Part shown: positions 16,001 to 64,000 of the stretch, piece by piece | Layout: each line of letters starts with the position of its first letter | How positions within the stretch are numbered: the stretch's first letter is position 1 | Assembly: GCA_009602725.1 (NCBI GenBank) | Contig: WELB01000006.1 | Coordinates: forward strand, 342,687 to 406,686 | Origin: Spirogloea muscicola | Lineage: Eukaryota | DNA: 64,000 nucleotides | Direction: 5' to 3' | The notes under the pieces: generated by a model | Seen by the model: the letters and a program-made list of their open reading frames with translations, nothing else | What the model was told of the DNA's origin: nothing | Database searches by the model: none | Program-made: the position numbers and the translations under genes

Positions 16001-19000
16001 ATGGACACAAGGTGGGCAAAAAGCTTAGCAGTCAATAACGAACAATAACCAACCAATGTAGCTATACTGTCTGTTACACTAGGTCCACATGCTCCAAGTC
16101 AAGCTTAAGAGTGTACCTCCAGGCGCTTCACGTAGTCCTCTACCTCAAGGCGCGCCATTGCATCCGGATGTTCCCTCACCCACTCCACGCACAGCTCCAG
16201 TGTGTCTTGGTCCACATCCTCCCTCTTCTCGCCAACGGTTAAGCAGTACACGGCCTCAGCCATGGCCTTGGCATCCTCGTATGACACCTATCGGGCATCT
16301 CAAGCAGGTCCTCAGTTGGACAACATAATTGATGGTGCAATGCAGTCATATAATTTGTGGCAGTGACCACACCTTCCCTGTGTACTAAGATCTAAGCCAT
16401 TTTGGCCAAATCTCTCTCGCATCATTACCCTTCCCTCCAACAATTGATGGAGCAGATTCCTAAGAGCTTAAAAAAACTCGAGCTAGGCACTCATTTGCAG
16501 CAATGCAAAGTGGCGTACTTCTTAACGTAAGGCAATGAAGAGCAAAGGCACGGGTGTCCTCACAGGATGGATGCGCGTGTCATCCAGTGGCTCAAACGTA
16601 ATGTCAGCCGAGGCCGCGGAGCCGGACGCCCGGACGCGCATCGCCCCGGCAGCATTAATGAAGACGAAGCGCTGCATCAGGGCCAAGGAGTCCAGGAGCT
16701 CCATGCGAGTCGCTATCTTCCCAGCTCCTTTGATTACCCTCTGTGCGCATGATGACAAACATAAGCAGCCTGAGGACAGGCCAATGCCAGAAATCCTGCA
16801 ATAATCAGGCCGCCCCTATCCCTAGTCCCTAACAGAGACGAATCAAGGGAGCTCAAAGGAGGTACACATCGTAGTGAACTCAGTCTTAAGAAGCTCTTGC
16901 TGTACACCTCACAGGTCTTTGTTGGTGCCTTCTATGATCCGCGAAGTGCTGACCAAGCAAGGGTTCTCCTATCCCAATAACTTGATAGCCATCTGTCAAC
17001 GACTTACTCAGTCAATTAAGCACTTGCCTGAATGTGCATGGCCTTCCTGGGACCAAGACCGGCAACGAATTGGAGAGGCGAGAACAGCCAGTCATGCGTG
17101 GCAGCGGCGTTGAGGTCGATCCCTACTTGACTGGAGATGGTGATCATGACTCTTTCCACCATCTCATAAACCTCGTCTCTATTCAGCAGATCCTGCAGCA
17201 TGCGACTTGGTCTTGCAATTTCATGGAGGTGCACAAATACACCATATACTTCTCTGCAACTAAGAACAACTTATGAAAAGCTGCCAAAATGGCTGCACTG
17301 CATTCCTGATGATGACAAGCAATCAGCTAATGTGCTAGTTCTAATTGCTGCATAAGCTATGGTAAACTGATTCAGGGACTTATGTGACACCTAATGAACA
17401 TGATCCATGTCTCAACCCCTGGCTACCATTTACGTGTTATTACTGCAAAGTCAGTGGTGCACTCATAACCAGGAACCTCTATATGTGTAGCTGCAAGTTC
17501 AGCCGCAGATGGTTTCAGCTTGCCTGAAGAGGATGAAGCTTGGCGGAGAGAATCTCTCGCTCAGGCCCGCAGAGCGAAGCCACCATGGCTAGCGGGTTCT
17601 GAATGTAACGCCCCAAGGCCACGGCCCTTCGAACAATACCTGAGAGCAATAAGTCATGGCAATGCTCAGTGCAAAAATCAGCACTAATTGCCGCAATCAT
17701 GGTCACCCAACAGCGCATGCATACATCAATCGGGTTAATGTCCACATTGTCATTGACACATCAAGGGACTGTCAAGCTCCCAAGCAGCTCAACTACAGCG
17801 CTCTACCCGGTGCCAGACCTGGCTGGCCAGGAAGCTGGTCCTGCGAGACGGGCGAGCGCTCATAGAGCTGGGCAAGCGTCTCTTCCACGAAGAAGCAGTC
17901 GAGTGCTGCGACCTCGTCAGACAGGAACTTGGGCTCGTCCTCGACAATCTTGAAGATGATGGCATAGATGTCGTCCTTCAGCCGCTTGCTTTGCAGGTTG
18001 GCACCGCCCAGCGCAACGACGTGCGGCTGGTTCTCGGCGAGGAACGTCAGCAGCCGCTCCCGGTCGCCGTCCTTGCGCCGCTGGTGCTCTTCGCCGCCGC
18101 CGCCCATGCTGAGGTACCCTGCGTGCAGCATGTCTACGAGGTCGCCGGCGGCATTGAGCATCACGAACGTCGTTGCCGGGTTGCCCGGTCCCCAGCAGCA
18201 CGCCGCCACGCGCATGGCCAGGTCCTCCTCCAGCGGTTCTGCGTCGCGCTCACGCTCGCGCTCGAGGTCAAGCTCGCGGTTCCAGCTGCGATCGCGCTCC
18301 TCGTCCCGATCCCTCAGGTCGCCGCCCCTGCTCAGCCCTGCCCTTGCATCATACGGCGCCCTCGCTGCGACATCCCACAGCACCTGCGCATACTTCTCCA
18401 ACATGTGCTGCTTTGCTCGGCTGGCAAGCGCCTGTGACGCCAACATGAGAAAGAGCAGCTCCATCATGTCAATTGCAGAGGGCTCACAACATCAGCAACA
18501 GTCCTTGCCAGTGTCACATGAGGTTCAGGACCTTCAGCTTGAGGATCGAAAGTCAGCAATGTAACGTAAGCTATGAGACCTTCTGCAGTGAGGAAGACAG
18601 CTAACTCTAAGCTGTTAGTCATAGCACATTCGTATCAGACACCTGTACTCAGGCTATACAACAGCAGTAGAAGATGTCTTGCCTGGCGGGCCTCTCGCTC
18701 CATGACAGGGATCAAGATCGAGACCACGGCCTCGCGCAATATCAGCTCACGTTCCTGATTCCAGCGGCGTGCCATGGAACTGACGGCATCGCTGAGGTAC
18801 AGATTCTCGAGCTCCTTCAGGAGACTCTTGTGCTCGGACGGCAGCATGCCAACACTCACATCGAGCAGGCCCTCGTCCTGCCCTTTCCGTAGGAGCAACC
18901 ACTGATCGTCATCGTCAAACTCGCGCAGCGGCTTGTTTTCCAGCCACTTGAACGGGCTGTAGGAGTGGAAGGCGTCAATGGCGGACTGGCCGGCGGCTGT

Positions 19001-22000
19001 CGGCTTCACGTTGACCACTGCCGCGGCACTGAATCGTGAACGCACAAACTCCCGTACAGCAACCTCCGATGCGATCTCCACTGCAGCCTGTTTGAAGACC
19101 CAATTCAAGTGCAATACCACGTTCAGACATGCACGTTGCAATTTGAACGTGCTACTGAGATGAAGCAGAAGGACATCTAGTAGATGGGAAATCACAATTA
19201 GCAAACAATTGCACAGCTCCCCTTTCAGCTGCCCTTTCAGCTAGAAGCATACACCACTTTCGGAGGCGAGTCTCACAATGGTGAAAGATGAATACTTATA
19301 AACTGCAAAAGCAGCTAGATCAACTTGACATATTGTACGTGACTCAGGTCTACCTCCATTGCCTGGAGGAGACGTCTGGTTGCATGTGGCAGGCGCTTAT
19401 TACCATGTGCCGAGCTCCCTTAAGCAGGAGCTGGACGTCCTGCAGGCCAGCCTGTGCCAGGCCCTCCTGTTGCTCCGCCGTCTCTTCAGGCGAGCGTGTG
19501 GGATCCTCCACCTCGTGTTGCTGTTGTGAGACTCAAGACAGAGATGTCATTTACTGGCACCAAGCAAGGCATATGAGAGGTCTCTGGAGCATGCTAAAGT
19601 GGGGATCTCACAAAGATGGACGGACATCGAGCTAGGCACTGTTGTGCCTCTTGTGGCATGGCAAGCACCTTGTACATTTCTTCCAAGCTGGCTGCGAGTT
19701 GCTCGGCAGTCAGCCCAAATTGCTTGGCCAAGCTTCCAAGTCCTAACTTCCTGTACACCGAGTACAGTGTTCGCTTCTTCGGCCGCTTGAACACGCTCTG
19801 CATCTGCTCCGTCTCCTCGGGAGGAAACTGCTCAGACATTACAATCTAAGGGTGAGTGTCAATACTATCTGGTCAAGCAGTGTGCTCATCAAAGGACTCA
19901 GATGCTCAACAGGAGTAGGGAGGATGAGCACTGATTGACAAGGTAAGCATGTGATTATCTCGCATTCTGTGGCCACATGTGATAGTGGCAGAGCAGCTCC
20001 AGCAGAGCTTGAGGCTTGTAGACCATCATAAGCTCATGGAAGCAGCACCCCATCATAGGCTCATGGAAGCAAAACCTGGGAAAGAATATTGTAGCAAGGC
20101 AAGTCTGGTATACTCAGCAGTCTCAGCGACAGTTGTGGCGCAGCAGACCTGCAGGTTAAACTTGGCATCCAGGTCTTCCAGGGCTTGCTCCGACTGCGCA
20201 TCCAGCACAGCTGCGCGGATGCGCTCCAGCACCTCGCTGCGCCGCACATCCTGCTCTGCTGTGTCCTGGGCCTTGGAGTAGAGTCGGTACACAACTTGCT
20301 TCCGCTGCTGCAGCTGCAGCCACTTCTTGTCCCAGTGGCAGATTGCCCACAGCGCCTGCTAGCAAGAAGCGGGGCATTGCTCGCTGAGGTGCAGCGACTC
20401 GTTGGGACAGCAACAGAGCGACAAGGTGTGACGCGTCAGACTACATTGCATCGTCTGCTACAGTGTGTAGGACCCAGCCCGGCCATTGCTCATCAGCTGA
20501 GTGTTTCTGCAACAATCTACATGTTAAGGGGCATGCATTGCTTCGAATGGCCAAAGCAGACATATATGTCGTATTCTAAAACCCTGACCATGAGAAGCCT
20601 ATTCCCTGGCTCCCTCTAACTATCATTTGTGAAGGTATTTCCAAGTAAAGACGGAGGTGTTAAGCCAAGGATGACTAGCAAAGGGTGTCCAAGCAATGGA
20701 TATCCCGTGCTGCAAGCCCACCTTGAAGTTCTGAAGTTGGTGGCGGTCCTCCTTCCCACGCCTTCCGAGGAGCGTCGGGCATGCGGCCTTGCGATACATC
20801 CCAATGAACGGCACCTGAAAAAGAGAGCGCCAGACATGCCAAGCAGAGAAACGACAGCAGCAGATTTGGTCAATTTCCGACTCAAGACCACCTCTTGCGG
20901 CTGCACTGCTCAGCTTCATGGAGGAGTCTCACACACAAGGGTGGTGACTCCAGCTGTGGCTACACAATTATAGAGAGCAGCATATTTGTAATAAAAATTG
21001 ATTACTGTAAGCTGAGCTGGTCATCCGTCTGTTCCCAATGCAAGACCCGTTGTACGTAGAGGTACCTCAGCTGGTCATCTATCTGTCCTTCATGCATGGA
21101 TTTCGATGATATATGACTGCTTGCTCCTGAATTGTTGTCTGTAAACTCAACATCCACTTACCCCAATCGTATGCAACCACAACCTGCCCACAGAATGTCA
21201 GCAATGGCACCAAGGAGCTAGTAAAAGCATGGGCAAGATTTGCCACCGGATGTCGCACCTCCAGCATCTCGCTGTGCATCATCTCAAGGACGTTGGCAAC
21301 CTCCTCCTGCACTGTGGCCTGCCGCTGCGCCTTCTCAGAGTGCGGCTCCATGGTCGTCAGGTACGCAAGCTCTGGCAGCGGAGGACGCGCCAGCGCGCCA
21401 ATGACACGGTCAAAGATCCACACTGCCTCGTCAGCCACGTCCTGTGCTGGGATGGGCCCCACAGCCTCGGCAAGCAGCTGCACATTGACATATCAGGAGC
21501 TTGTTCAACAACACCTCCTTGCTACGGTTAGCTGTCTAACTATGATTACCAGGACTTCTGAAAATGGTCATTAATTGACTAAATTCCAGGTCTCTCCAGG
21601 TCCAGGTCCACTTCACCTAGACCTCAGGCCAATTCTCCTAGACCTCATCTGTTATCTATCTTCAGCCAGACAACCTTTCCTCTTACAAACATCAACGTCC
21701 AGTATTGTTAGCATCTAAATGAGCCACAATTCTAACACGCCGGACTATATGGCAGGAGCAGACAATGTGTGCAAGCAGTCCTGCCGACACAGAGCAGACG
21801 CCATCACCTGCATGCGCTCAGGGACGTCAAGCTGCCGAATCTGCTCGTCGCGCTCTGTCATGTACTTGGCCTCCAGCACGCTTGGCTCGAAGCGCCGGGC
21901 GAGCGACTGCTTGGCCAGGGACCCCGCAGCCCCTGCAGCGGTCCGCCGGGCCCGCCGCCGGCCCTCTGTGTCATCGTCCTCTGCGCCCTCCTCGCCCTCC

Positions 22001-23894
22001 TCGTCCAGCCCCGCAGCGCCGTCCTCGTCGCCGCCGCCGGCCTCCATTGCCTCGCGCCGCCGCCGGTCCATCTCCAGCAGCTCCGTGACGTCGCCGAAGA
22101 TGTCCTGCGCCTCCTGCAGCGCCGACGCGTTGACGCCCTCCGCTGCGCCCCGGCCCGCGCGCTTCTTTGGCCGCCGCCGCCGTACCGGCTGCCCGTGCTC
22201 GTCCTCCTCCTCGTCCACGATGAAGTCGGCCATCTCGTCCTCCTCCTCAGCCAGATCCTCATCCTCCTCGCCGTCCTCGCTGTCCCCAGGAGGTCTCTCG
22301 AGCAGCGCGGCGTCATCGTCCTCTGCAACGCCTGGCAGCGCGCGCTTGTTGGGAATTGGAGAAGTCAAGAGAGAAGGTTTGGAATAGTTTGACTTGGAGG
22401 GTTTAAAAGCTTTAGATTCAAGGGTTTAGGGTTTCAGATTAGGGGTAGAGGCTAGGGTTCAGGTTTAAGGATTTTGGGGTTTCGGGTTTAGGGAAGGATT
22501 GGAATCTACATCAGGCCTTACAAGCACGGCACATCACAATGTGCAGCAGATGAGGGGGGAGAGCCGGATCTCCTCACCATCTTTGTCGTCACCGAACAGC
22601 GAGCGCTCAAACACCTGCTCCGCTGTCCGCGCGGCGGCCGCGCCGCCACCCAGCCTGCGACCCTCAGTCTTGTGCAGGCCGCCGCTGCTCTCCTCCCCGT
22701 CCTCGCCCAGGCGGCCCTGCTCAGCGCCGCCGCCCCCGCCTTCCTCCTCGACGTCCAGCTCCACGTTCCGCTTCTTCAGCCGCTTGAACTTCTTCTTATC
22801 GCCCTGCCAGGCGCCGCCGCGACGAGCTCGTCAACAAGGGACCATCATGGTGGCACTGGCGGTATGGCCGAGCCAGTGTTGGGTCTAAGGAGCGTTAGGA
22901 GTTGGTTAAAGCTTTCATCTAAGCACTTAGACCCTAGATTGTCCTTGTTGGGTTATGCAGCCAGCAGAAACGGCAGTGCTCACAGCCTTAGGCGGCGGAC
23001 GGTGGTAGCCGGCGACGTTCTCCTGCAGAAGCTCGTAATCCTCGTCATCCAGCTCCAGCTCTCTGTGCCGCCACGGCACCCCTCTATACTCAAGTCAGGC
23101 GCTAAACAACCTAGATGACCATGATGAAGGGCTTCAGAGCTTCAGAGCTTCAGTGAGGTCAATTCACTGTACTGGGGAAGGGCGGTCCCAGCCATGGCGG
23201 CCCAACGCGACGAAGACAGGCGCTGTCTGGCACCCGAACTCATGCAGCCCACGACCGGACTTGAATCGGAGACCTTTCCCTCACCAAAGGAGTACTCTGC
23301 CAAGCGCGGCAGCAGCGGCAATGGCTCACGTCTTGCGGCGCTTCTTGCGGCGGGCGCGGGCCTCCTCGGCGGCGCCGTCGCCGTCGCCATCCTCGGCAGC
23401 CGCCGCCTCCTCCTCCTCCTCCTCCACGTCGTCCACCATCCAGCCGTCCTTCTCGTACTCGTTTTGGCCCTCCTCTGCCATCAGCAGATATATTCTCAGC
23501 AGCTTGCTGATTATAATCTGAAACTATTCTTTCTGCACGGCTTAGCGGCGGCGGCGGCTGCGCCGGGGGTCAGCGCCAGGCCAGCGCACCTGGGCTGCGC
23601 GTGGCTCTGGGAATTAGGGTTAGAGTTCGGGGTGTGGCAGCGGCGGCGCTGGCGGCGGTGCTCACCTTCCTCCTCCTCCTCGTCCTCGTCCTCGTCGTCG
23701 TCGTCCTCGCCGCCGCCGCCGCCGCCGCCGCTGCCGCNCGTCGCCCTCCTCCTCCTCGTCCGCGAGCCCCCCGCCATCTGCGCCCCGCCAGCCTCGCCGG
23801 GTCAGGCAACGGCGGCCATCGCCGCCGCCACGACCTCCCCCGCCGAGACCCAGCTCTACCTCGCCGCCGCCTCACCTTCCTCGTCGGCGCTCAT
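13097..23894 (-). CDS. SPT6: Transcription elongation factor SPT6, about 20 exons
   Basis: Acidic N-terminus (MSADEE, YEKDGWMVDD, LDDEDYELL), EAQDIFGDV, YMTERDEQIRQLDVPERMQ, YqgF-like region (CCWGPGNPATTFVML), RRAVALGRYIQNPL, HhH (FVAGLGPRKA), LDDTRIHP, S1 domain, tandem SH2 (ILRPSSKGPDHLSLTLK; PGAFVLSYI; GFRFRK). Confidence 0.96.
22399..22493 (-). repeat. Degenerate plant telomere-like (CCCTAAA)n cluster inside a SPT6 intron
   Basis: GGGTTTAAAAG..AGGGTTTAGGGTTTCAGATTAGGGG..CTAGGGTTCAGGTTTAAGG..GGGTTTAGGG on the + strand. Similar clusters at 5086-5147, 5757-5814, 9983-10056 and 35057-35100. Confidence 0.7.
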
Positions 23895-24214: not shown

Positions 24215-24600
24215 ACTCCGACCTGATGTTGCTCACTCGAGGGTACTGAGCTTCCCTAGTGCGTTGTCGTGTTTGGTAGTGTAGTCCTTTTTCGGCACCT
24301 CTTTCTTTGGCTTTGGACAATGTCCATTCTTTTTGGACTGGCTTTGCCAGCCCCCTTCTCTATGGGCGAGCACTGCTTAGAGAAGGCTCCGAGACATGTG
24401 GGTTCCAGTTTCAGCTGTGGTGCATAATCGGAAGTACCGGTTTGGCAATCATCTCGTGTTGCTACGCCGCCGCTCGTCAGCTTCAAATTGTGTCTCAAGA
24501 GCACTAAAGATTGATGATCAATAACCATGATAATATTGTTTGAGCCAACTGTATGGATTTAACTGCCATTTCCTGTTAGGCTGGCCTCTCATAGCCACTT
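24215..24600 (+). repeat. Copy of the dispersed GGGCTGGC repeat family between SPT6 and RPB2
   Basis: 24215-24372 aligns with 19-190 and 56440-56597. A further motif lies at ~24565-24596. Confidence 0.8.
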
Positions 24601-25224: not shown

Positions 25225-28200
25225 CTATTTCTTTTTTTTGGGTACCGCATAGCGGGTCATCATTCGCGGCGCAATGGCCATGGACATGAGCTCCTGGAAC
25301 AGTAGCTTGCACGCATACGGGATGTGGACCTGCAGAAGAGTGAACCAGAGTAAGACCAGCAACATCACCATTGAGCTTGCGAACTAGCACAACGATAAGC
25401 GATGCAATCACCTAGAAATGATAAAACATGACAGGAGGAAGCGAGCAGGATGGAAGCTTCAGAAGTCAGAGACTTGTAAATTTGGACGTAGTAATTGGAT
25501 ATTGTGAATTAGAAGGCATACCTGCACAATGTCTGTCTTGTTCTTGCAGCCTCTGCACTCAAACAGGTTCTTCTTCAGGTTAGCATTGGCAATCAGCCCG
25601 CAGTACTCGCACACGTGCACCCGGTATGCATCGCTCTGGTCAAAGAGCCGCTCTTTCAGGAAGGCGGCAGCGCCGTGCGCAATCATGCAGTCCCGCTCCA
25701 TCTCGCCAAATCGCAACCCACCATCCCTGGCCCTGCCCTCTGCTGGCTGCCTTGTCAAAATCTGTAGGGGCAAAAACACAATAAACCTATAAGCTAGTTA
25801 CTTATTACGTTCTTACGACTGCAGCCCTGACAGTGCTAAATTGAAGTCATGCTGACGGACCTCTACCTTCTCGCACATAGGTATCTTCTTATCAGCGAGG
25901 GTTGTGAGGCTTGACAAAATATCTGTAGCTTTGAAGCTAAACACCTAGCAATTGTGGCTAAAGATGACATGAAGGTGGAGTGGAGATTCGGTGTCAGCAG
26001 GAACCATTCCTTGAGCTGTGTCAACAGAGTCTGCAGTCAGATTCTTATGGAAGAAGATTGTGTGTGTGGATTAGGCACCTGCACCGGCCCGCGGCCGCGT
26101 GAGTGGATCTTGTCATCCACCATGTGCTTGAGGCGCTGGTAGTAGGTCGGGTTGAGGAAGACCTGCGCCTGCAGGCGCCGACCCGTATGCCCATTGTACA
26201 TCACCTCAAAGCCCTGCGCCTGGTACCCGCACTTATGCAACGCCTTGCTGATGTTGTCCACAGTCACGTCAGTGAAAGGTGTGGCGTCGCCCTCCTTTCC
26301 CATGTGTGCCGCCACCTTGCTCATCAGCGCCTCAATCAAATGCCCGATGGTCATGCGTGACGGAATGGCGTGTGGATTCACGATGATGTCTGGCGTGATA
26401 CCCTCCTGGAAACAAGTTGCATGCATAATCAAGCAACTGGTGGTTAGTAGCCATGATAAGTTGTTGACGGTGATATCCTGTCCCCTTTGCTAATCTTTAA
26501 GTAACTCAACCATACTTTGACTAAGACTAACAGGTATCCCATAATGACTTTCAGTAAGTGATGACAGTAATATCGACTTGAGCCTTACTTGCGACCAAGG
26601 CATGTCCTCTTGGGTGTATGTCATTCCAACCGTGCCCTTCTGCCCATGTCGGCTGGCGAACTTGTCCCCAATCTGCGGTATCCTGATTGACCTCACGCGG
26701 ACCTTGACAAATCGAAGGCCATCGGCGTTGGTTGTCAAAAGCACCTGCCGATCAAATCGAAAGAAGCTGCTAAGGGCAAGATGTGACTGCAGAATAAAAT
26801 TTCAATTTTCAGGTCGACAAGCACTGTAGGCTGATGTCACAATGTACTTTACCTGGTCAACCATGCCACTCTCGCTATGACGAAGGGTTGTGCTCTGGTC
26901 GCGCTTTGAATATCGCTGAGCCTGACTGCCAGTGTCATCTTGGGGCAGCGGAGTGGTCTTTCCTATTATAACATCCTCTCCAGCAACACGAGTGCCCTGA
27001 TGAATCCGCAGCAGTCAATGGCTTCAGGGCTCAAGAAAACAGATCCACAGCATTGAGAATTATTATGAGGACAGCAAGCCTGTTATCCTGCAATGCTCTT
27101 CTTGGGTTAAGCACAATGTAGTGAGCACGATGTAGTCTATGTGGCAGCTAGTCCTGTCGCCACAACTCGCCCACAACTTACCGGAGGAGCCAGCCCATCA
27201 TCGTCGAGCTTATCATATGAGCCATGTCGCATGCCCTGCCATATCAATCCATGTTAAAATTGTCAGCTGCCTGAACAAGCATTCCAACAGTACGAATCTG
27301 CATGCTGCACTTGCCAACCAAAGCATCAGAATCTCATTCAAGTAGTATCCCAGAAGGACCACTGGTTCCAAAAGACCAGCCCAGGCAAACAACTCACTGT
27401 TGTGATTTCACGATCTGGCCGCTCAAATTCTTCCTTGACAAGTGAGCCCTGCTTTTTTTCCTCGTCTCTGTCATAGTCAAGACCACGGAAGCACAACATT
27501 AAGATCAGTGTCTGTGACATGTGACAAAGTCGTCATGATGTAATTGACGACGATCGCCTGGCAAATAGCACTCTACTTGTGACATGCTCTGATTACTTCA
27601 CCTGTACGAGCGGAAGAATATTGAGCGGAAGAATCCGCGATCTATGGAGGACTGGTTCATGATGACAGAGTCCTCCTGATTGTAGCCCGAGTAACAGAGA
27701 ATAGCCACAATGGCATTCTGCAAGATACCCAGTAACAATTTCAGCTCATGTGAACATGCACAACCACAGAGAATGAGCTGAGAATTCTACATGCAACACT
27801 GCCCACTGCCGAAAAGCAACAAGTGCAGAGTGCTCACAATGCCAGCAGGCAGCTGCCGGAAGTGGATGTGCTCCATTGCCCGTGTTGTGACGAGGGGTTT
27901 TTGGGGGTAGTAGAGTACATACGCAAGTGTATCCTATAACCAAGACAGACAAGACCAAGCATGAGCAAATCTGCATACTGAAGTGATGCTTGATGTTTTG
28001 CTCAACATCTCCATAGTGAAATTATTCCTAGTATACTCTGAAACAGTCTGGTGGCGATAGGAAGCAGTTGCATACCATGCGCAGCTGGTAATTTGTGACA
28101 TATATTCCCATGGCCTGCTTGCCCATGGCTGATTGATATGTGTTACGAGGAGACTGCACCAAGACAACATGGATCAGTCTTGATACCATAGCAGCATCAT

Positions 28201-56289: not shown

Positions 56290-57135
56290 GGCTTGTTCCT
56301 GGACCTTGTCTACTTTATTGGGTTGGCCCAACTGAACAATTGCCTCCTTCAATTCCACCTCTGAATGCACTCGGCTGCCTTGCACTGCCGCTACTTGACA
56401 TCAGCAGCCGCTTCACTTGGGAAGACGAGCGTTCTCCTCTGGCTCACACGTGGGTACTGAGCATCCATCTTGATCTCCCTCTGCACCGTTGCGTGCTTTG
56501 TAGTGTAGTCCTTTTTCGGCACTTCTATCTTTGGCTTTGGACATTGTCCATTCTTTTTGGGTTGGCTTTGCCAGCCCCTCTTTTCTATGGGCGAGCTCTT
56601 CTTCTGGCTCTGGCCAGGGGCCCCATTTCCGGGAGCCTAGCATCTCTGATCCGCGGCTGCTTAGCAGGGGTTACTGAGTGATTCGTAGCTGCTTTGTTTC
56701 TTTGTGTGCTTGTATGTCTTAGCGCTTCCCCTGGCCCCCTTCTCGTACTTTGTTCATTCTTTTTTGGGCTGGCTTTTCCAGCCCCTCTTCTCAATGGGCG
56801 AGCCCTTTTCCTTCTCCTCGCTCTGCTCGAGGCTATTCTGCTAATTGAAGCTGCCAGCTACGCATTCCTCTCAGCTGGCCAATCACGGCAATCGCGCTGC
56901 TTCTCTTCTCAGTGTGTCCTTCATCCACTGACATTGCCTCGCAGTGGACATGTTTGAGACAGCTCTACTTAGAAACAGCTCTATCAAAGTAAGGCTAAAA
57001 CTGTGAGAGCTCCAGCTCGTCACAGCACGCCAAATTTCTGCTCATTGCTCGCAGTCTTTCTCTCGCAGTCTCTTCAGTACATGGCAGTCAGTCCTGTTCC
57101 TTTGCGGCCCCATCCATCTCTTGGGCTGGCCCTCT
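56290..57135 (+). repeat. Forward array of the GGGCTGGC repeat family
   Basis: Motif copies at ~56299, 56532, 56735 and 57105. 56440-56597 matches 35-190. Confidence 0.75.
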
Positions 57136-57734
57136 AGGGGCCAGGTGCATCCACCTGGCCCCTGATTACCTCCTCTGCCTTCTAGTCTGCAGTGACATAT
57201 GGACCATAATTGTCAAATGACAGCCTCGTGGTCCCGCTTGACTCAAGCCCCAAGACGCACAGCACCTGCCCCAACATGCAGGTATGGTCAGGCTTTGTAC
57301 TGAACCCCAGGACAAGCTCGGGGAGAGGAAGTTTTGACTGCTCGCCTGCCTCAGCTGCTTTCGAGGTCCAGCTCGTTGTCCCACATCTTGCCAATACGAC
57401 TGACTTTGCAACCACGAGTCCCACTCATGCTAGTGCTCTGTATTTGATAACCGTCACTGGTCTTGACAGGATGCGCACTCGCATTCAATATGCATCGAAA
57501 TTGCATTCAGCAATTTGATGATTGAGATACACAAGTTAGAAGGAACAAAGAATACATTGATGAACGAAGAGAAATGAAAGAATTTCTCCTGCATGGCCGC
57601 CGCTCCACATGGGCCACTTTTGCAGCACAGGCAGGTGCAGAGGATGCACTGAGCTCGAGCAGGGCAGCTGGCCGCGTGACGCTGGTCTGTGACAGAAAAG
57701 AAGCTCGCTGATCCAAAGTGGGCGAGGGCTATGA

Positions 57735-58724
57735 AAAGCTAGCCCAGACAGGATGGACAAGATCCGAAGGCGCTGGAACCGCTGAAGCCCAAAACTAAGC
57801 ACAAACAGCAGCTCCTTCCAAGTGGCCGGGGGCTGCAGAAGGGCTACAAAGCCAGCCCAGAGGAAAGTCTTGTTAAAAAGGTCATTCAGGAAAAACAGCT
57901 CTTCAATAAAAGGTAATAACTTCAAGAGACCAGCCAAAACAAACTGAACAAAGTCAGATGGTGCAAAGGACGAAATACGCATATGCTTGGTGAAGGGTGT
58001 AAAATATGGAGTAGCCCTTCCTAACGAGAAATAGCTCTCGCAAGGTAAGGCGATGGCGTAAGCAGCTCTTCTCAAAGGAGGTGAAGGGGCTCTGAATGCC
58101 AGCCCAAAACGAAGAATAATCTTAATTAAGGCAGTCACTGCCGTTTGAGAAGAAGACCTTTCTCTTCCCATCTTCATTTGGAGGAAAAGTCTGCGATGGC
58201 TGTGGGACAAAGTAGTAGCTTTTTCAGAGGCGCGAGGGCAAGGGCCAGCTTTTAGAAGCCTTACAAGGTCCTAGTCACGGAAAGCAGATAGCACAAGGAG
58301 CCAGGGAGAAGAGAAGTGGCACTCCCGGGGGCAAGGGCAGCGAAAAGCCAGCCCAAAAGAAATTGACGAAGGGTCGGAGGGGCCTTCAAGCGTTTAGCAG
58401 CGTCAAAGGGGCCTGAAGATGCTATGTCAGAACAGGGGAAGGATGGATCACTCAGGAGTTACGAGTGAGGAGTTACGAGAGAGAAGGCGCGTGGTGCACA
58501 GATGAGGCAAGGCAGTAATCAAAATAAGTAAGCTCTTCTAGTATCAGCAGCGGCAATCTTCCATTGGGGCGTGGGGCTGTGAAAGCAAGCCCAAAAAAGG
58601 TAGAAGGGGCCGCAAAGCACTAAGTACACAACCAAGCAAGTATCACGCAAGTAAGCTCATCCAACGGGGGCGCGGGCTGTATAAAGCCAGCCCGAGAAAA
58701 CTGTACAAGGTCCGAAGGGGCTGA
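57735..58724 (-). repeat. Reverse-orientation array of the GGGCTGGC repeat family, abutting the viral block
   Basis: AAAGCCAGCCC.(A-rich).ACAAGGTCCGAAGGGGC-type copies at ~57735, 57848, 58097, 58345, 58581 and 58683-58720. Confidence 0.7.
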
Positions 58725-59150
58725 ATGACATGTCAAGCACCGACGAAGGGTGGTCACCTAGTAAAGCCAAGGGCCTTTTACAATGGTGTGTGGAGAACCC
58801 TTAAGGTACACGAGGAGCAGGAGGTCTTAGATAGCTACAGGGATCTAGTCAACAATCTCATGGATCACGTAGATGAGTGCCCTGTGTATGGGATGATATC
58901 TGTTATAGACGGGGACATGAGGCTACGCTTGCGCAATATTGAGGACTTTAACATGTCTGTTGAGGACCGGAGGTACGTCAGGAGAGGTAAGAATATAAAG
59001 TCTATAAAGAAGGCGGACCTCGCTCATATAAGCGCTTTTGTTGACAATATAGCTGGCAAACCTGAGAGCAACAGTTCTGGCCCTATAAGCAGCATCATCA
59101 AGCATATTGACAGCGTAGTTGTGGGCATGGGTATGTACGCAATAATATGA
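58725..59150 (+). CDS. Viral hypothetical protein; possibly the 5'-truncated C-terminus of a D6/D11 (VETF-S/NPH-I)-like helicase
   Basis: PVYGMISVIDGDMRLR...EDRRYVRRGKNIKSIKKADLAHI recalls the C-terminal tail of NCLDV D6/D11-like helicases (from memory, unverified). The ORF begins at the junction with the host repeat. Confidence 0.45.
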   Translation: MTCQAPTKGGHLVKPRAFYNGVWRTLKVHEEQEVLDSYRDLVNNLMDHVDECPVYGMISVIDGDMRLRLRNIEDFNMSVEDRRYVRRGKNIKSIKKADLAHISAFVDNIAGKPESNSSGPISSIIKHIDSVVVGMGMYAII

Positions 59151-59350
59151 TGGAAGAGGCCTTCGGAAGACTCAGCGATATCCAGAGGAGGCACGTTAAC
59201 AAGCAAATGTTTGCCCTTGCCTACGGCTGCATAACGCGGTCCAGAGGTGACCCCAAAATCTTGCGCAAGATAGTATCAGAAGAAGGAGGATCACCTGATT
59301 TAACAGCAGATCTCCTCAGATATTGCAGGCTCGTAGAATCGGTAATGTAA
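59147..59350 (+). CDS. Viral hypothetical protein (67 aa)
   Basis: ATGA overlap with the upstream ORF and TAATG overlap with RPB5. Same base composition as the rest of the block. Confidence 0.6.
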   Translation: MMEEAFGRLSDIQRRHVNKQMFALAYGCITRSRGDPKILRKIVSEEGGSPDLTADLLRYCRLVESVM

Positions 59351-59838
59351 TGGACACCCTCAGAAGGCTAAGACCTTCACACTCCTTTATTGACTACACT
59401 GAGAGGGTGTGCGATAAGCGGTCTATTGCCTACCTCCTAGTAGAGATAAGGAGGCACATAAACTATGGGGAAGGCCATGCACATAAATCTGGATACCAGG
59501 GCACAATCTCGCAAGAGACATCTGGCAACATAATAATTGTCAGGAACCATTCTGATGGCATTATCGGCAAGATTATAGAGGAGGTCGATCCAGAAGACAG
59601 CGCAAACGTCTTCTTGCAGTCTGAGTTAGACGTGGACCCAGTAAACAATTTGATGGTGCCCAAGCACAGGCCTGCTACAGATGAGGAGATAGGCTGGCTC
59701 ATAGAGAAGAATATACCTTGGCACAAGCTTCCAATAATAAAGATGAAGGACCCTATCCGTAGGTGGCACAACTTTACCCAAGGCTCTGTTGTTGCTATAG
59801 AAAGGGGCGATGGCATTTACTTCAGGCGCGCCTCTTAA
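59350..59838 (+). CDS. RPB5: Viral DNA-directed RNA polymerase subunit RPB5 homolog (162 aa)
   Basis: C-terminal assembly-domain motifs VFLQSELDVDPVNNLMVPKH...EE...KLPIIKMKDPIRRWHNFTQGSVVAIER...YFR, compared with canonical F..EL..N.....VPKH, LP.I...DP..R.....G.VV.I.R, YR. Intronless, with a short divergent N-terminus. Confidence 0.85.
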   Translation: MDTLRRLRPSHSFIDYTERVCDKRSIAYLLVEIRRHINYGEGHAHKSGYQGTISQETSGNIIIVRNHSDGIIGKIIEEVDPEDSANVFLQSELDVDPVNNLMVPKHRPATDEEIGWLIEKNIPWHKLPIIKMKDPIRRWHNFTQGSVVAIERGDGIYFRRAS

Positions 59839-59845
59839 AAGCTTT

Positions 59846-60310
59846 TTAAAAGCCACGTGTAAGAGCCATAACTATTATGCCCCTATCTGCGTCTACCTCT
59901 ACTGGCTCAGCATATCTGCTGTAAAACCGCAGAAGGTGTGTGCTATCAAATGTTATAGAGAGCGTGACATTGGATCCTCTTCGAGAAACCTCTCTTAGCA
60001 TGTGCGTTCCAAATCCTCTCCTTCTCCACTCCTCTGCAACAAATAGCACGTGTATGTGAATACACTGCTCGCCATAGGGGCCAAACGCACACACTCCTAT
60101 TATGTCCCACTGGTCCGCCTTGCAGAGAAGGACCAAGAACACTGTGCTCTCACACTCCCAGTCTAACGAGGTCCGGTAATTTGAATCTAAGAAAGCCCTT
60201 ATAGCCGACCTTGTACGAGGGTTATTGTTGTCAAATTCTACAAGCTTTACTTCCATGGAAGGACCTGCGTCCGGTATCAAGTTTCTATGACGCGGGCCTG
60301 AGTGAATCAT
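59846..60310 (-). CDS. GNAT-family N-acetyltransferase (viral block)
   Basis: IIGVCAF, IHIHVLFVAEEWRRRGFGTHMLREV (acetyl-CoA binding motif A, RxxGxG) and LRFYSR. Confidence 0.85.
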   Translation of the reverse strand: MIHSGPRHRNLIPDAGPSMEVKLVEFDNNNPRTRSAIRAFLDSNYRTSLDWECESTVFLVLLCKADQWDIIGVCAFGPYGEQCIHIHVLFVAEEWRRRGFGTHMLREVSRRGSNVTLSITFDSTHLLRFYSRYAEPVEVDADRGIIVMALTRGF

Positions 60311-61149
60311 TTACTTTTTAAGAGATGCTGCATATCTCCAGCACATAAACGCGGGGCGTGCCATATCTATCACCGCATTTTCCCTGCTATGGACTCTTCC
60401 GCATTGTACGCACATCCCAGCCCTTATCCTATTAAGAAATATCCTAGAACCTGAGATGTGCTTTACTCTGAAGTGGTAGTAGAGGGCTTGGATATTATTT
60501 GTTTGGGCATTCGGGATACTCCTTTAATGGTGCTGAGCTCTAGTCCGTGCTCTCTTACGCCATCAGTAGCTGAGACTAGACCAAGTCGAAGTGAGCGCCT
60601 TGGAATGCACGGCTTTTTCCACCTCTCTTCTCCGAACTTAGTGCTGCCCTTTACCCTTATATTCTGGACAGTCTTGTACACACCCTTATCTACAAGTCTA
60701 TCCCATATTTGCCCCCTGGACACGAGGATGCACAATCCTGCGCATGTCTTAGCAGAGAACAAGAAGTTAGGGACAACAACGTGGTAAGATATCTTGCTAT
60801 CACTGCATATGTCGTATATAAGCACCTCTGGCACCCCTATTTCTAGCTCTGCAAATACACACCTTATCCTGTGCTCTACATGCCTTACGAAGTCATACAT
60901 GCGGAATAGATCGATGTCATCATCGTTGTTATGGCTGTCTATATCTTTAAAAAAATTTCTCCTGTCTGATGTCACTACCTCACTCACAGTCCTCTCGCTG
61001 CTTGAGAGTCCTGCGTACCAGCCCTCAAAATCTTCTACACTCGAGAAGCTAGAGAAGCACCTGCTCTTTCCTAGATCTATCTGTATGATAAAAGGGGCCT
61101 GAACAAGCCCTGAGAGAGTGTAATAAATCCTTGCCTTGTAGAAGAGCAT
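60311..61149 (-). pseudogene. Herpes/NCLDV-type archaeo-eukaryotic primase (PrimPol/UL52-like), split by a frameshift before its Zn-finger
   Basis: Motifs SEVV..DRRNFFKDID, KISYHVVV and VDKGVYKTVQNIRVKGSTK in 60463-61149. The Zn-binding tail FLNRIRAGMCVQCGRVHSRENA...FMCWR is in the -1 frame and ends at TAA 60311-60313. Confidence 0.8.
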
Positions 61150-61150
61150 G

Positions 61151-62044
61151 CTATCCTATGAGGAAGAATTCCCTGATGCTGTTTACGTCTATAGACTGGC
61201 TCGAAAGGCACAGCTCTGCCTTGTCTCTTAGTTGGTCAATTTTGTTCACTCTTGCGGGTCTTATACCTCTTGTCCCTAAGTTGTAGTCAGTGCCCATCAT
61301 ACAGCACTTGTAGACAACATCCTCACTGTTATGGGACTGGAATTTGTTAACTACGTCAGAGAGTGCAACATAAGAGACAGTGTTTAGGCTCACCTCTTTT
61401 ATCATGATTCTGGCGCCAAAGAGTGCTACACAGTCGAAATCTTCGGAAAGTACTGCATCTGCCCCCATAGTAGAACAGAGCCTGTCAGGTTCAAAGCTGT
61501 CGTCCTCTTTAGGGAAGACATGGAGGGCTGGCAGGGCCTCAGACCCGTGGCTTAGACAGACCTCTTCTATGTGGGTAATAAGGTATCTCTCAAAAGCGGC
61601 GTAGCACCCTAATATGGCCTTTATCTTCAGCAGATCTCTCTTGTAAGATTCCAGGGACCTGTCAAGCTCTTGGCGCGCCTCAAGCTTCTCCTTGGCTCTG
61701 TAGTGTCTCAGAGACTCCTTGTACGGGCAGGGAGTACTAGGACAGAGCACGTAAGATGCCTCCTTTATGGACATAATCTCTACCTCACACTTCATTTGCT
61801 GCAGGGCTTCATAGAACACTTTTCTCACCTCTGCTTCCACACCGTTTATTATTATCCCGAATACGCGCCCTATTTTTGTCCACAACTTCGCCTCGCAGCA
61901 GCACAACCTTATGTAGCGGAATGTCCGAGATCTTACGTCTACAGCTACCCTAGAGAAAGGCCTCTCATTTATGTGGCATTCCCTCACTCTCGTGTGCCTT
62001 GCAAGCTCCTTGTATCCCGACCCCTTCCAGCTTTTGAGCTCCAT
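61151..62044 (-). CDS. FEN1: FEN1/XPG (Rad2)-family flap endonuclease, viral type (297 aa)
   Basis: VAVDV...FRY (N-domain), FEPDRLC (EA[D/E]-equivalent), AVLSEDFDCVALFGA, CCMMGTDYNLGTRGIRP (H2TH motif). Intronless. Confidence 0.85.
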   Translation of the reverse strand: MELKSWKGSGYKELARHTRVRECHINERPFSRVAVDVRSRTFRYIRLCCCEAKLWTKIGRVFGIIINGVEAEVRKVFYEALQQMKCEVEIMSIKEASYVLCPSTPCPYKESLRHYRAKEKLEARQELDRSLESYKRDLLKIKAILGCYAAFERYLITHIEEVCLSHGSEALPALHVFPKEDDSFEPDRLCSTMGADAVLSEDFDCVALFGARIMIKEVSLNTVSYVALSDVVNKFQSHNSEDVVYKCCMMGTDYNLGTRGIRPARVNKIDQLRDKAELCLSSQSIDVNSIREFFLIG

Positions 62045-62075
62045 TAGTGTCGTGCTGCCAGTTACTCTGCATTAA

Positions 62076-62112
62076 TAGCGTCAATTTCGCAGCCGCGCGT
62101 AAACTGACGTTA
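62076..62112. promoter_or_regulatory. Candidate bidirectional viral early promoter (inverted AAA[T/C]TGACG pair)
   Basis: TAGCGTCAATTT (62076-62087) and AAACTGACGTTA (62101-62112) form an imperfect inverted repeat in the spacer between divergent genes. Each arm resembles the Mimivirus early motif AAAATTGA. Confidence 0.45.
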
Positions 62113-62161
62113 CTAGGAGCAAGATATACACCCTTCTTTGCGAAACAAACAGGAGAGCGCG

Positions 62162-62542
62162 ATGTCACCCAGCAAGCGCCCGTGCATAGAGGTAGAGAAT
62201 CGGAGGCGCCCAGCGTATGCCCGCGACCCTGTAGAGGACTTTGTGTCCATAATAAGAGAGGAGCGCGGTTGTACACAGGATGTCTACAGAGCAAATCTGA
62301 TGTTCCTAAGGAGCCTCATAAACAACTGCCACATACCAAAGTCTAGCATTATATGGGATAATGATTGTATCCACAAGATTCACGGCGTAAGGCTAGATCG
62401 CGAGAACAGGATAGTGTACGAGAGGGCGCAGAGTAAAAGAGAAGATGATATCAGGGACGAGCCTCATACAATGTCTGTAAACCTGTTGTCACTAAAAGAG
62501 GCTGTTTTAAGGGAGAAAAGATGGAATACCATGCAACATTAG
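62162..62542 (+). CDS. Viral hypothetical protein (126 aa)
   Basis: ATG at 62162, divergent from FEN1. Intronless, and overlaps the UDG start by 22 nt. Confidence 0.6.
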   Translation: MSPSKRPCIEVENRRRPAYARDPVEDFVSIIREERGCTQDVYRANLMFLRSLINNCHIPKSSIIWDNDCIHKIHGVRLDRENRIVYERAQSKREDDIRDEPHTMSVNLLSLKEAVLREKRWNTMQH

Positions 62543-62847
62543 AGGATTGGGCTTATTTTTTTGACGAAGAAAGGCTAAAATTGACTCTCAGCTACCTTAG
62601 GGAGTTTCACAGCAAATTTCAGGTTATTCCCAGGCCTTGCTACGAGTTCCGAATGTTCAAGATGATGCGCCCAGAGGCGGTAAGAGTAGTGATGGTAGGG
62701 CAATCGCCTTATCCTGGCGTGTGCCCTGTCACCCATGTGGAATATGCGTTTGGGCCTGCTTTCTATCCAAATCCTAGGTGCGCTACAACACCGGTTACGC
62801 TCCGCTTTATTATGGCCGAGCTTTGCCGGGATCTAGGGAATCATTGA
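62521..62847 (+). pseudogene. ung: Family-1 uracil-DNA glycosylase, N-terminal half only
   Basis: VIPRP..FRMF...PEAVRVVMVGQSPYPG, AFGPAF, PVTLRFIMAELCRD (cf. VKVVILGQDPY, A.GL.F, PPSL.NI.KEL..D). The GVLLLN and HPSP motifs are absent and the ORF stops where GC-rich host DNA resumes. Confidence 0.8.
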
Positions 62848-63030
62848 CGAGGTCAGGAGGGGCGAGGTGGGGCCCAGTCCGGCTGTCACGCGGCCGCAGT
62901 CAGCTGGACGTTGTGACAGTTGACCGGCCGATCGGTCGTGGGCCGCTCCGAGGAACCGATGTCCAGGATTGGGAAGATGGGTGTGGGGGGGNCTGCTGTC
63001 CTGAGCTTCACCTGGCCTGCACATCAAGGC

Positions 63031-63034
<4 letters not shown>

Positions 63035-63080
<46 letters not shown>

Positions 63081-63103
63081 ATATATATATATATATATAT
63101 ATA
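63035..63103. repeat. Compound (GA)n(TA)n microsatellite
   Basis: Seen directly. Confidence 0.95.
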
Positions 63104-64000
63104 AGAGCAGCTCAAACAGGAGCGAGAGAGGGGGAGAGGTATAATGCAAGTGGGAGAGAGTGCTCAAGAAAAATGGAAGAGAGAGGGAGAGCTAGGAAGG
63201 AAGTGGGAGGAGATGAAGCAGCTCCTCCGAAGTAAGAGGGAGAGTGAAAGAGATAGAGCGGGAGGAGAGAGCCAGCGTGGGGAGGGGAGGGCGTGGGGCA
63301 GCCAGCAACTGCAGAGCCATACCGGCGCGGCTTGGCGTCTGCGGCGCCGCTAGCCTGCCTACCTGAGCTGGCCTCGAGGCTGCACCATGGCACTTGCTGG
63401 GCTGATTGCTGAGCTGCCAGCTTGACGCCCACTTGGCATGACACGACCCACGTTGGATGCGGAGTCGGCTGTGCGAGGCGCGGGACTCTGGCAGTGACTA
63501 TAGAACGTTGAAGTGGCGTCTCGAGAGACCAGCACCAAGCTTGCTTGCAATTGTGCAGCGGCAAGCCATTGGCCTCCAGCGAGGCTAAGCCACCAGCAGC
63601 TATGCAGCGGCCTGCCGCTGGCTCCACTGGCAGGACCCTCATGTTGCGCTGTAGGCGCTTTATCCTCGCTTTCGTGAGCAGCATTCTCCTGCTTCCACTC
63701 TCACAGCCGACTTCACACCAGGCAGCAGGCTCCTGTGGCCTTCTCGGAATCCCTCTGGGCAAGATTGTCTACGTCACCAAGTTATATGGAGCTAACGTAA
63801 TCACGAGTCCAGGCAGCCCTAGAGGATCTGGGCAAGCCATTCTTATCTTTGACTTCAGAGTGAGCAGCAAGGCCTTGTAGAAGCTGTACTAATATGGAAG
63901 CAGATTGTCAGGACGAAGTTTTCATGTACTGGATTGCGTCTCATTCTGAGCTGTGAGTCGATGCTTAGGACCTCTTGTTCCTTTTTGAGTTGCTAGCGAA

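What the first reader, a model, noticed from the sequence alone, without database searches (positions are those of the whole stretch)
58725..62847. Endogenous giant-virus (NCLDV) genome fragment integrated in a streptophyte-like nuclear genome
Seen: after ~58 kb of intron-rich, GC-rich DNA come eight intronless, lower-GC ORFs packed nose to tail: hypothetical, hypothetical, RPB5, GNAT, primase, FEN1, hypothetical, UDG. Neither junction falls on an N. The N-free stretch 55718-62991 also carries host (GCC)n tracts and the repeat family found at 19-490 and 24215. Established: RPB5, herpes-type AEP primase, XPG/FEN1 and family-1 UDG are Nucleocytoviricota genes, and NCLDV endogenisation is known in green algae and early land plants. 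Inference: this is a real and fairly recent insertion (most ORFs intact) from a virus with its own RNA polymerase, possibly Pimascovirales/pitho-like. The proteins look very divergent, so the virus may belong to an unsampled lineage infecting streptophytes.
Basis: partly seen in the sequence, partly recalled or inferred. Interest (0 to 1): 0.9.

Follow-up and report, generated by a model that had tools for sequence, protein, structure and literature searches.

The report
Giant virus caught entering algal genome
A broken 4-kb piece of giant-virus DNA is joined to the nuclear DNA of an alga from the group closest to land plants, and sequencing runs of one sample also hold a 96%-identical version at about 20 to 180 times the alga's depth, likely a live virus, which would give a first handle on a giant virus of these algae.

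Summary
The viral fragment is real: about 58764-62837 (4.07 kb, 47% GC, 96% coding), from an unnamed family of small nucleocytoviruses known here only from metagenomes. Flanking genes are zygnematophyte (an RPB2 exon is 99% identical to a Spirogloea-type gene model). Three of eight genes are broken: ORF1 is the tail of a VETFS-like helicase, the primase is frameshifted, UDG is cut. A single-copy-depth contig bridges the left junction in two runs; the right junction is untested against reads. The main new point: runs of one sample carry a second version, 96% identical, at 118-183x host depth (22-46x in a third run) while host repeats scale steadily. In it the window's two blocks lie 13.5 kb apart and inverted. 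Differences are mostly synonymous (22 of 37 codons), so the insert came recently from a sister strain. Best reading: an accidental, dead insertion from a virus that is likely replicating in this alga. Order-level placement (pitho-like) is unresolved, and no capsid gene was seen.

The parts
58764..62837 (.). Viral insert, 4,074 nt, 96% coding
   Evidence: Loose ends of the high-depth version at 58764 and 62837; composition
58764..60262 (.). Block A (VETFS tail, ORF2, RPB5, GNAT)
   Evidence: Lies at 13655-15157, minus strand, of the 28,371-nt contig in run X5
60263..60325 (.). Internal joint between blocks A and B; the exact break is uncertain by some tens of bases
   Evidence: High-depth version leaves the window at 60262 and 60326; no other match in the window
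60326..62837 (.). Block B (primase, FEN1, ORF7, UDG start)
   Evidence: X5 contigs of 22,701 and 28,371 nt; same order and orientation in L001, L003, L004, L005
58725..59150 (+). C-terminal ~135 aa of a VETFS (vaccinia D6)-like SF2 helicase, cut by the left junction
   Evidence: 40% over 139 aa to residues 714-852 of an 852-aa protein in L091, whose best PDB hit is VETFS, E 5e-17
59147..59350 (+). Conserved 67-aa protein of unknown family, full length
   Evidence: 48% to a 67-aa ORF between VETFS and RPB5 in L091
59341..59838 (+). Viral RNA polymerase subunit RPB5, full length
   Evidence: PF01191 E 1e-7; 47% to L091; best of 121 hits 44-54%
59846..60256 (-). GNAT acetyltransferase (likely start 60256; the listed ORF runs on to 60310, into the joint)
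   Evidence: PF00583 E 2e-9; 30-35% to 4 of 5 related loci
60311..61149 (-). AEP-type primase with C-terminal Cys/His motif; frameshifted near 60523 (pseudogene)
   Evidence: Relatives are 283-309 aa and match in two frames; second frame open to about 60311; Atlas 0.97 to Nucleocytoviricota clusters with PF23162/PF03121
61151..62044 (-). FEN1/XPG-family nuclease, 297 aa, full length
   Evidence: Model pLDDT 93; Foldseek hits to viral and human FEN1; 33 homologs
62138..62542 (+). Conserved 134-aa protein of unknown family, full length
   Evidence: 29-34% to all 5 related loci; no Pfam or PHROG hit; Atlas uninformative
62521..62837 (+). N-terminal ~105 aa of a uracil-DNA glycosylase, cut by the right junction
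   Evidence: Relatives are 238-261 aa; match ends at 62838; PDB E 6e-7
57707..58723 (.). Degenerate units of a high-copy host repeat family next to the left junction
   Evidence: Six ~36-nt units; matches at 415-499 of the window; very high summed depth
58426..58811 (+). Stretch covered by a contig that bridges the left junction at single-copy depth
   Evidence: 386 nt, 0 differences, depth 50.8 in X1 and 92.4 in X3 (table 8)

Best explanation
The stretch 58764-62837 is a two-piece, gene-truncating fragment of nucleocytovirus DNA joined to repeat-rich nuclear DNA of a zygnematophyte alga, likely captured by accident during DNA break repair from a sister strain of a virus that likely still replicates in this alga. 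Shown: viral gene identities, gene order shared with metagenomic relatives, cut genes at both ends, the internal joint, no target-site duplication, a bridged left junction, and a 96%-identical version at 20-180x host depth. Inferred: (1) the high-depth version is extrachromosomal, because its ratio to host DNA swings four- to eightfold between runs while host repeats move within about 1.6-fold; (2) its host is the alga, because a near-identical copy and two further PolB gene models of the family sit in this algal lineage's DNA; (3) end-joining did the insertion, because no integrase or duplication is present; (4) the insert is recent and inert as a virus, because divergence is mostly synonymous, shows no C-to-T excess, and the piece lacks nearly all core genes. 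The donor family carries RNA polymerase, early transcription factor, capping enzyme, PolB and D5, so it would transcribe and replicate in the cytoplasm (from established knowledge of these gene sets).
For: Left junction bridged with 338 nt on the host side and 48 nt on the viral side, at host depth, in X1 and X3. Per-contig depth ratios: X1 183/162, X3 129/118, X4 22/46 for blocks A/B; three host-repeat bins relative to single-copy: 9591/7503/11870, 30047/23350/36438, 1944/1661/2349. 158 differences in 4,031 aligned nt in X5. 22 of 37 codons synonymous against 27% expected, p 3e-5, on the 40 listed of 183 places. X1 change counts are symmetric: T>C 30 and A>G 21 against C>T 30 and G>A 23. Block B order conserved in 4 of 5 loci, the fifth ending before UDG; block A order conserved in L091. 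Relatives' contigs carry PolB, D5, split RPB1, RPB2, TFIIS, capping enzyme, SF2 helicases. No confirmed relative in prokaryote genomes, 0 of 26 pattern matches. Host RPB2 exon 99% to a model of the gene set labelled Spirogloea muscicola, next 93% (unnamed) and 91% (Mesotaenium). Two Spirogloea-labelled PolB models fall in the subclade that holds PolBs from contigs of the same lengths as those of the FEN1's close relatives.
Against: The right junction and the internal joint were not shown in reads. All depth data are assembled contigs, and the tool warns that they are no copy number; X1, X3 and X4 are one sample and may be the window's own source. Blocks A and B differ twofold in X4, which is unexplained. 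No capsid, A32 or VLTF3 gene was found by Pfam in the one 51.7-kb relative read end to end. The virus's own PolB was not seen; the PolB link rests on equal contig lengths. The culture's purity is unknown.
Confidence: 0.66

Rival explanations
1. The insert is real, but the high-depth version is a virus of another organism in the culture (amoeba, fungus or similar); the alga only captured stray DNA.
For: The sister clade in the PolB tree holds Mortierella and Linnemannia proteins.
Against: 96% identity between the insert and the high-depth version, further single-copy-depth variants (depth 50-58 in X1, 98-100 in X3) and two distinct PolB models, 73.5% identical to each other, in the Spirogloea-labelled gene set point to repeated contact with this alga. 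X5 may be carry-over.
Confidence: 0.12
2. The high-depth version is chromosomal: one to two hundred near-identical integrated copies, or a copy inside an organelle genome.
For: Contig depth cannot tell where DNA lies; organelle DNA reaches such ratios and varies between libraries (own knowledge); low-depth variants show that other integrated copies probably exist.
Against: Ratio to host falls from about 170 to 22-46 between runs while host repeats stay within 1.6-fold. It assembles into uniform 28- and 23-kb contigs; 150 copies of 51 kb would be over 7 Mb of near-identical DNA.
Confidence: 0.1
3. The window is an assembly chimera between host contigs and a co-sequenced virus.
For: Short-read-type assembly with Ns at 55717 and 62992; the right junction is unverified; abundant viral DNA favours chimeric reads.
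Against: The same 386-nt junction contig occurs in two runs at host single-copy depth with 0 differences. The window copy differs by 4% from the abundant version, so it is not that version mis-joined.
Confidence: 0.06
4. The donor is not a nucleocytovirus but a mirusvirus or another large DNA virus sharing the informational genes.
For: No capsid gene seen; PolB lies on its own long stem, at most 31% identical to the 80 viral-collection loci kept, and scores best on Pol delta among solved structures. An episome plus integrant pair is known for mirusviruses (PMC12606086, abstract).
Against: VETFS, capping enzyme, D5, DUF5757, A18-like helicase and MutS-HNH form a nucleocytovirus set (assignment from own knowledge). 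The primase's nearest Atlas clusters are Nucleocytoviricota; the FEN1 fold's best viral hits are nucleocytoviruses.
Confidence: 0.06

Closest known systems
Nucleocytovirus inserts in streptophytes: Physcomitrium patens (putative Pithoviridae) and Klebsormidium (Phycodnaviridae) (PMC5294986, passages read)
   Same: Intronless nucleocytovirus genes inside a streptophyte nuclear assembly.
   Different: Here the host is a zygnematophyte, the insert is 4 kb and very young, and a 96%-identical high-depth version is in the same reads. Kinship with the moss virus was not tested.
Punuivirus GEVE of Chlamydomonas reinhardtii (bioRxiv 10.1101/2024.09.03.611062, abstract) and Ectocarpus phaeovirus EVEs (PMC13236599, abstract)
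   Same: Integrated giant-virus DNA together with virus production in healthy-looking algal cultures.
   Different: Those are full-length latent proviruses; this insert is a dead fragment from a sister strain, and no full-length provirus is shown. Different virus lineage and host.
Aurantiochytrium mirusviruses AurliV-1/2 (PMC12606086, abstract) and 'Skiavirales' (bioRxiv 10.64898/2026.07.28.741200, abstract)
   Same: A persistent extrachromosomal large DNA virus beside a related integrant, found in host genome data.
   Different: Skiaviruses lack RNA polymerase; this family has a full transcription set. Mirusviruses belong to another realm.
Pimascovirales (pithoviruses, cedratviruses, family PM_01) (PMC8575486 and PMC13691094, passages read)
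   Same: Top FEN1 fold hits are pithoviruses and a cedratvirus; lake Pimascovirales MAGs were linked by co-occurrence to Zygnematophyceae (PMC13691094).
   Different: Only 14-17% identity; PolB does not join the reference clade; family contigs reach at most 137 kb.

Membership tests
Endogenous viral element | Viral genes joined to host DNA, junction supported by reads at host depth (left) | tested here: met
   table 8, runs X1 and X3; X4 and X5 list no such contig, and the table is cut
Endogenous viral element | Right junction supported by reads | tested here: inconclusive
   No bridging contig among the pieces shown; N-free in the window
Endogenous viral element | Flanks are host nuclear DNA | tested here: met
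   Intron-split RPB2, FolD and EMC4 genes, LINE-type RT, host repeats; the 154 nt right of the insert have no clear match
Endogenous viral element | Decay or silencing after insertion | tested here: inconclusive
   One frameshift and two cut genes, no C-to-T excess; methylation and RNA not testable, no RNA holder listed
Nucleocytoviricota | Core informational genes (PolB, D5, RNAP subunits, SF2 helicase, capping enzyme, TFIIS) | tested here: met
   On syntenic relatives' contigs; in the window only RPB5, VETFS tail, primase, FEN1, UDG
Nucleocytoviricota | Double-jelly-roll major capsid protein, A32 ATPase, VLTF3 | tested here: inconclusive
   No Pfam hit in one 51.7-kb relative and four shorter loci; these are partial genomes
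Nucleocytoviricota | Proteins closer to viral than to cellular homologs | tested here: met
   FEN1: 33 of 33 hits from metagenome or run assemblies, none with a cellular name; 0 of 26 in prokaryote genomes; RPB5 44-54% to its closest unnamed hits against E 2e-6 to cellular RPB5
Pimascovirales | Groups inside the order in marker-gene trees | tested here: inconclusive
   PolB tree with 20 unclassified reference loci, quick method: family plus sister clade on its own stem, support 99, base open; no curated reference set was available
Latent giant provirus (punuivirus or phaeovirus type) | Full-length integrated genome with termini and integrase | tested here: not met
   This insert is 4 kb, cut inside genes, no integrase, longest shared flank word 6 nt and off the ends; copies elsewhere in the genome could not be searched
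AEP primase, herpes UL52/C962R-like | Profile or fold match to AEP primases | tested here: inconclusive
   Atlas 0.97 with 204-210 of 256 features supports it; no Pfam or PDB sequence hit; model pLDDT 47 gave no significant fold match
FEN1/XPG nuclease | Fold and acidic active-site residues | tested here: met
   Foldseek E 1e-8 to human FEN1; D36, E185, D187, D202, D204 invariant and D253 nearly so in 30 rows; matching these to catalytic sites is recalled

The most novel reading that the evidence does not exclude
This alga carries a persistent, actively replicating small giant virus of an unnamed family, at over a hundred genomes per host genome, that sheds fragments into the nucleus again and again and may come from a latent full-length copy elsewhere: the first live nucleocytovirus-host system in the algal sisters of land plants, hidden in existing genome reads.
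Probability: 0.45. Interest if true: 0.88.

Novelty: new member of a known kind. Interest (0 to 1): 0.72.

Why it matters
Giant-virus remnants in mosses and streptophyte algae have shown that such viruses once infected this lineage, but a 2017 survey noted that none had been reported from streptophyte algae (PMC5294986, passage), and a 2026 preprint says no such DNA virus has been isolated from higher plants or fungi (10.1101/2025.04.19.649669, passage). If the high-depth version is a live virus of this alga, a culturable host-virus pair already exists for asking how giant viruses enter walled streptophyte cells, how fragments integrate and how plant-type methylation silences them. It also gives a host to a widespread metagenomic family: 85 of the 121 PolBs fall in it. 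The insert alone is an ordinary kind of object.

Tried and rejected
No whole genome is held, so other copies, MCP or PolB could not be sought in the assembly. No RNA holder listed. RPB5 alone found no viral-collection locus (0 of 19). L006 (E 2e-4, bacterial-looking) was dropped, leaving 5 loci. The PolB scan of viral contigs covered 10 of 64 parts and returned only distant polymerases. The careful PolB tree did not finish; the quick tree is quoted, and it used 28 of the 120 database PolBs plus L089 and 20 of 80 loci. The primase model was too poor for fold search; pithovirus and cedratvirus primases appeared only at E 0.2-0.3 and the best VIA Z was 7.0 to unrelated folds. ORF7 stays unassigned. 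A 476-aa capsid-sized ORF in L001 proved to end in a bulb-type lectin domain. The capping enzyme had no PDB hit. No target-site duplication or terminal repeat; no Rfam hit in 52000-64000. The Sphagnum NCLDV MAGs (PMC12142844, passages and a search of supplementary file 2) could not be tied to this family. Earlier scan findings: nothing in 4 look-ups. Rejected: cellular gene transfer (gene order, density); neutral decay as the main source of the 4%; X5 as independent support (same letters at all 40 listed places, possible carry-over).
Full report
1. Observation. GC is 0.472 over 58725-62847, against 0.507-0.533 in the 2.7 kb to the left and 0.556 for 1-52000; GC3 is 0.47-0.57 against 0.80-0.81 in two host exons. 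The nearest Ns are single bases at 55717 and 62992. The left flank holds a LINE-type RT ORF (PF00078, E 2e-17), GCC tracts and a repeat family shared with 26-199 and 24262-24378.

2. Genes. Pfam names 3 of the 8: RPB5, GNAT and XPG_I, the last just under its cut-off. The FEN1 model (pLDDT 93, 30 sequences) matches human FEN1/Exo1 and viral flap endonucleases, best Pithovirus LCPAC102, LCPAC403 and Cedratvirus kamchatka at 14-17% identity. UDG matches PDB at E 6e-7 (I recall the top entries as mimivirus UDG). The primase has no Pfam or PDB sequence hit, but a full-length relative scores 0.97 to Nucleocytoviricota clusters, 12-37% of whose members carry PF23162 and some PF03121. ORF1 is 40% identical to the last 139 aa of an 852-aa helicase whose best PDB hit is VETFS. 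ORF2 and ORF7 are conserved but unassigned. Three genes are broken: VETFS is cut at the left end, UDG at the right (105 of 238-261 aa), and the primase changes frame near 60523.

3. Donor family. FEN1 finds 33 proteins among 594 candidates, 34-65% identical, all from metagenome or run assemblies, on contigs up to 137 kb. Five real loci were fetched (1 of 21 and 5 of 82 pattern matches, one dropped as spurious). Primase, FEN1 and ORF7 are in all 5 in the window's order, UDG in 4, GNAT in 4. One 51.7-kb record read end to end also has VETFS-ORF2-RPB5 in the window's order, plus PolB, D5, RPB1 split in two, RPB2, DUF5757, capping enzyme, a second SF2 helicase, MutS with HNH and an ATP ligase; TFIIS has its Pfam hit in L003. 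No MCP, A32 or VLTF3 was found in these partial genomes. Prokaryote genomes gave nothing (0 of 26). In a tree of 121 PolBs, 85 form the family (support 100) and 36 lie on the other side, among them Mortierella and Linnemannia proteins. With 20 viral-collection references the two together sit on one long stem (99) and join none of them (quick method, references unclassified). So the phylum is well supported and the order is open.

4. Host. A 109-aa RPB2 exon (26076-26402) is 99% identical to EukProt model SM000006S19367, then 93% to an unnamed protein and 91% to a Mesotaenium model, with land plants at 86-90%. Models with that prefix are labelled Spirogloea muscicola, the sole species of one zygnematophyte order (PMC13730384, passage). 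Two PolB models of the same gene set, 73.5% identical to each other, lie in an 18-row subclade (support 99) with PolBs from contigs of 86,918, 90,132 and 25,742 nt, the lengths of contigs that bear close relatives of the window's FEN1. That link by length is an inference.

5. Reads. Ten runs hold part of the stretch; four were laid, all as assembled contigs; X1, X3 and X4 are one sample and may be the window's source. Host flanks have depths of 51-56 (X1), 92-109 (X3) and 47-56 (X4); one more flank contig is lower (30.5 in X1, 84.3 in X3). A 386-nt contig with no differences spans 58426-58811 at depth 50.8 in X1 and 92.4 in X3, bridging the left junction. No bridging contig for the right junction or the internal joint is among the pieces shown, and the table is cut. 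Over the insert, the dominant contigs are a different version, 96.1% identical (158 differences in 4,031 nt), at 8,700-9,900 (X1), 11,400-12,900 (X3) and 1,100-2,600 (X4): 183/162, 129/118 and 22/46 times host depth for blocks A/B. Three host-repeat bins move within 1.6-fold relative to single-copy depth across these runs. The tool warns that contig depth is no copy number, so this is a strong hint, not proof. The deep version leaves the window at 58764, 60262, 60326 and 62837. In X5 (other organism code and study, depth 20-22, same letters at all 40 listed places, possibly carry-over) it forms contigs of 28,371 and 22,701 nt, in which block A lies 13.5 kb beyond the UDG cut and inverted. The distant relative also has VETFS 17 kb beyond UDG, so the window's order is the odd one. 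Extra contigs at single-copy depth with mixed letters (57.8 and 100.1 at 59191; 50.1 and 97.9 at 61187) suggest further integrated copies.

6. Age and mechanism. Of the 40 listed differences (of 183), 22 of 37 codons are synonymous against 27% expected (p 3e-5); 39 of the 40 lie in block A. Transitions are symmetric in X1 (51 against 53), and most listed indels in genes are multiples of three. So most divergence arose between two working strains, and the insert has decayed little. Both ends cut genes, there is no integrase, no terminal repeat and no target-site duplication, which fits accidental capture by end-joining (inferred). The fragment cannot make virus; whether its five whole genes are expressed is unknown.

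7. Known cases. Inserts in P. patens (putative Pithoviridae) and Klebsormidium (Phycodnaviridae) are described (PMC5294986, passages), and viral genes in both are methylated (PMC12344493, passages). Integrated plus active virus is known for punuivirus, phaeoviruses, Aurantiochytrium mirusviruses and skiaviruses (abstracts only). Lake Pimascovirales MAGs co-occur with Zygnematophyceae (PMC13691094, passages). Also read as passages: PMC11100222, PMC12142844 (plus a search of one supplement; its PDF not read), PMC9546926, PMC8575486, PMC9915684. I found no paper on this virus: Spirogloea with giant virus gave 0, Nucleocytoviricota with Zygnematophyceae 3, of which the two read describe none; searches showed none in their listings. 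Subscription papers are not searched, and the closed supplements of the 7,103-assembly survey (10.1101/2025.04.19.649669, passages) may list this assembly's viral regions.

8. Verdict. A real, young, dead nucleocytovirus fragment in a zygnematophyte (about 0.9), an ordinary kind of object, made notable by a near-identical high-depth version that is likely a live virus of the same alga (0.66 for the whole account). Interest 0.72.

Noticed in passing
window 52586-55663 (-): Non-LTR retrotransposon-type ORF with RT domain (PF00078 E 2e-17), an N at 53261, 3 kb left of the insert.
   Followed up: partly
window 56433-56812 and 57707-58723: Degenerate host repeat family in both orientations, with summed contig depth 1,700 to 36,000 times single-copy; the insert abuts one unit.
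   Followed up: partly
window 37286-39937 (-): 883-aa open frame of Gly/Ser/Tyr/Gln-rich repeats with 270-480-nt periodicity, no Pfam hit; resembles stress or dehydration proteins (recalled).
   Followed up: no
window 3075-3587, 11006-11533, about 17800-22400, 25471-32900, 47454-49100: Host genes: FolD and EMC4 (Pfam), RPB2, SPT6-like and RPL10-like (named from recall of the translations).
   Followed up: partly
window about 62690-62720; L003, L004: The UDG motif has Ser where family-1 enzymes have the catalytic Asp (role recalled), in the window and in 2 of 4 related loci checked; a family trait, not decay.
   Followed up: partly
P0128, P0152: Mortierella and Linnemannia proteins fall in the PolB clade beside this family, suggesting related viruses in Mucoromycota fungi.
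   Followed up: no
L089 1808-2800; L001 17620-19050; L092 8789-11542: The related viral record encodes a phage-type lysozyme with a peptidoglycan-binding domain, a protein ending in a bulb-type mannose lectin domain, and MutS fused to HNH.
   Followed up: no
P0117: A Spirogloea-labelled gene model spanning 14 kb joins collagen-like exons to the viral PolB: a chimeric model or a host-virus fusion.
   Followed up: no
run X4, window 58764-62837: Block B is about twice as deep as block A in this run only; unexplained.
   Followed up: no
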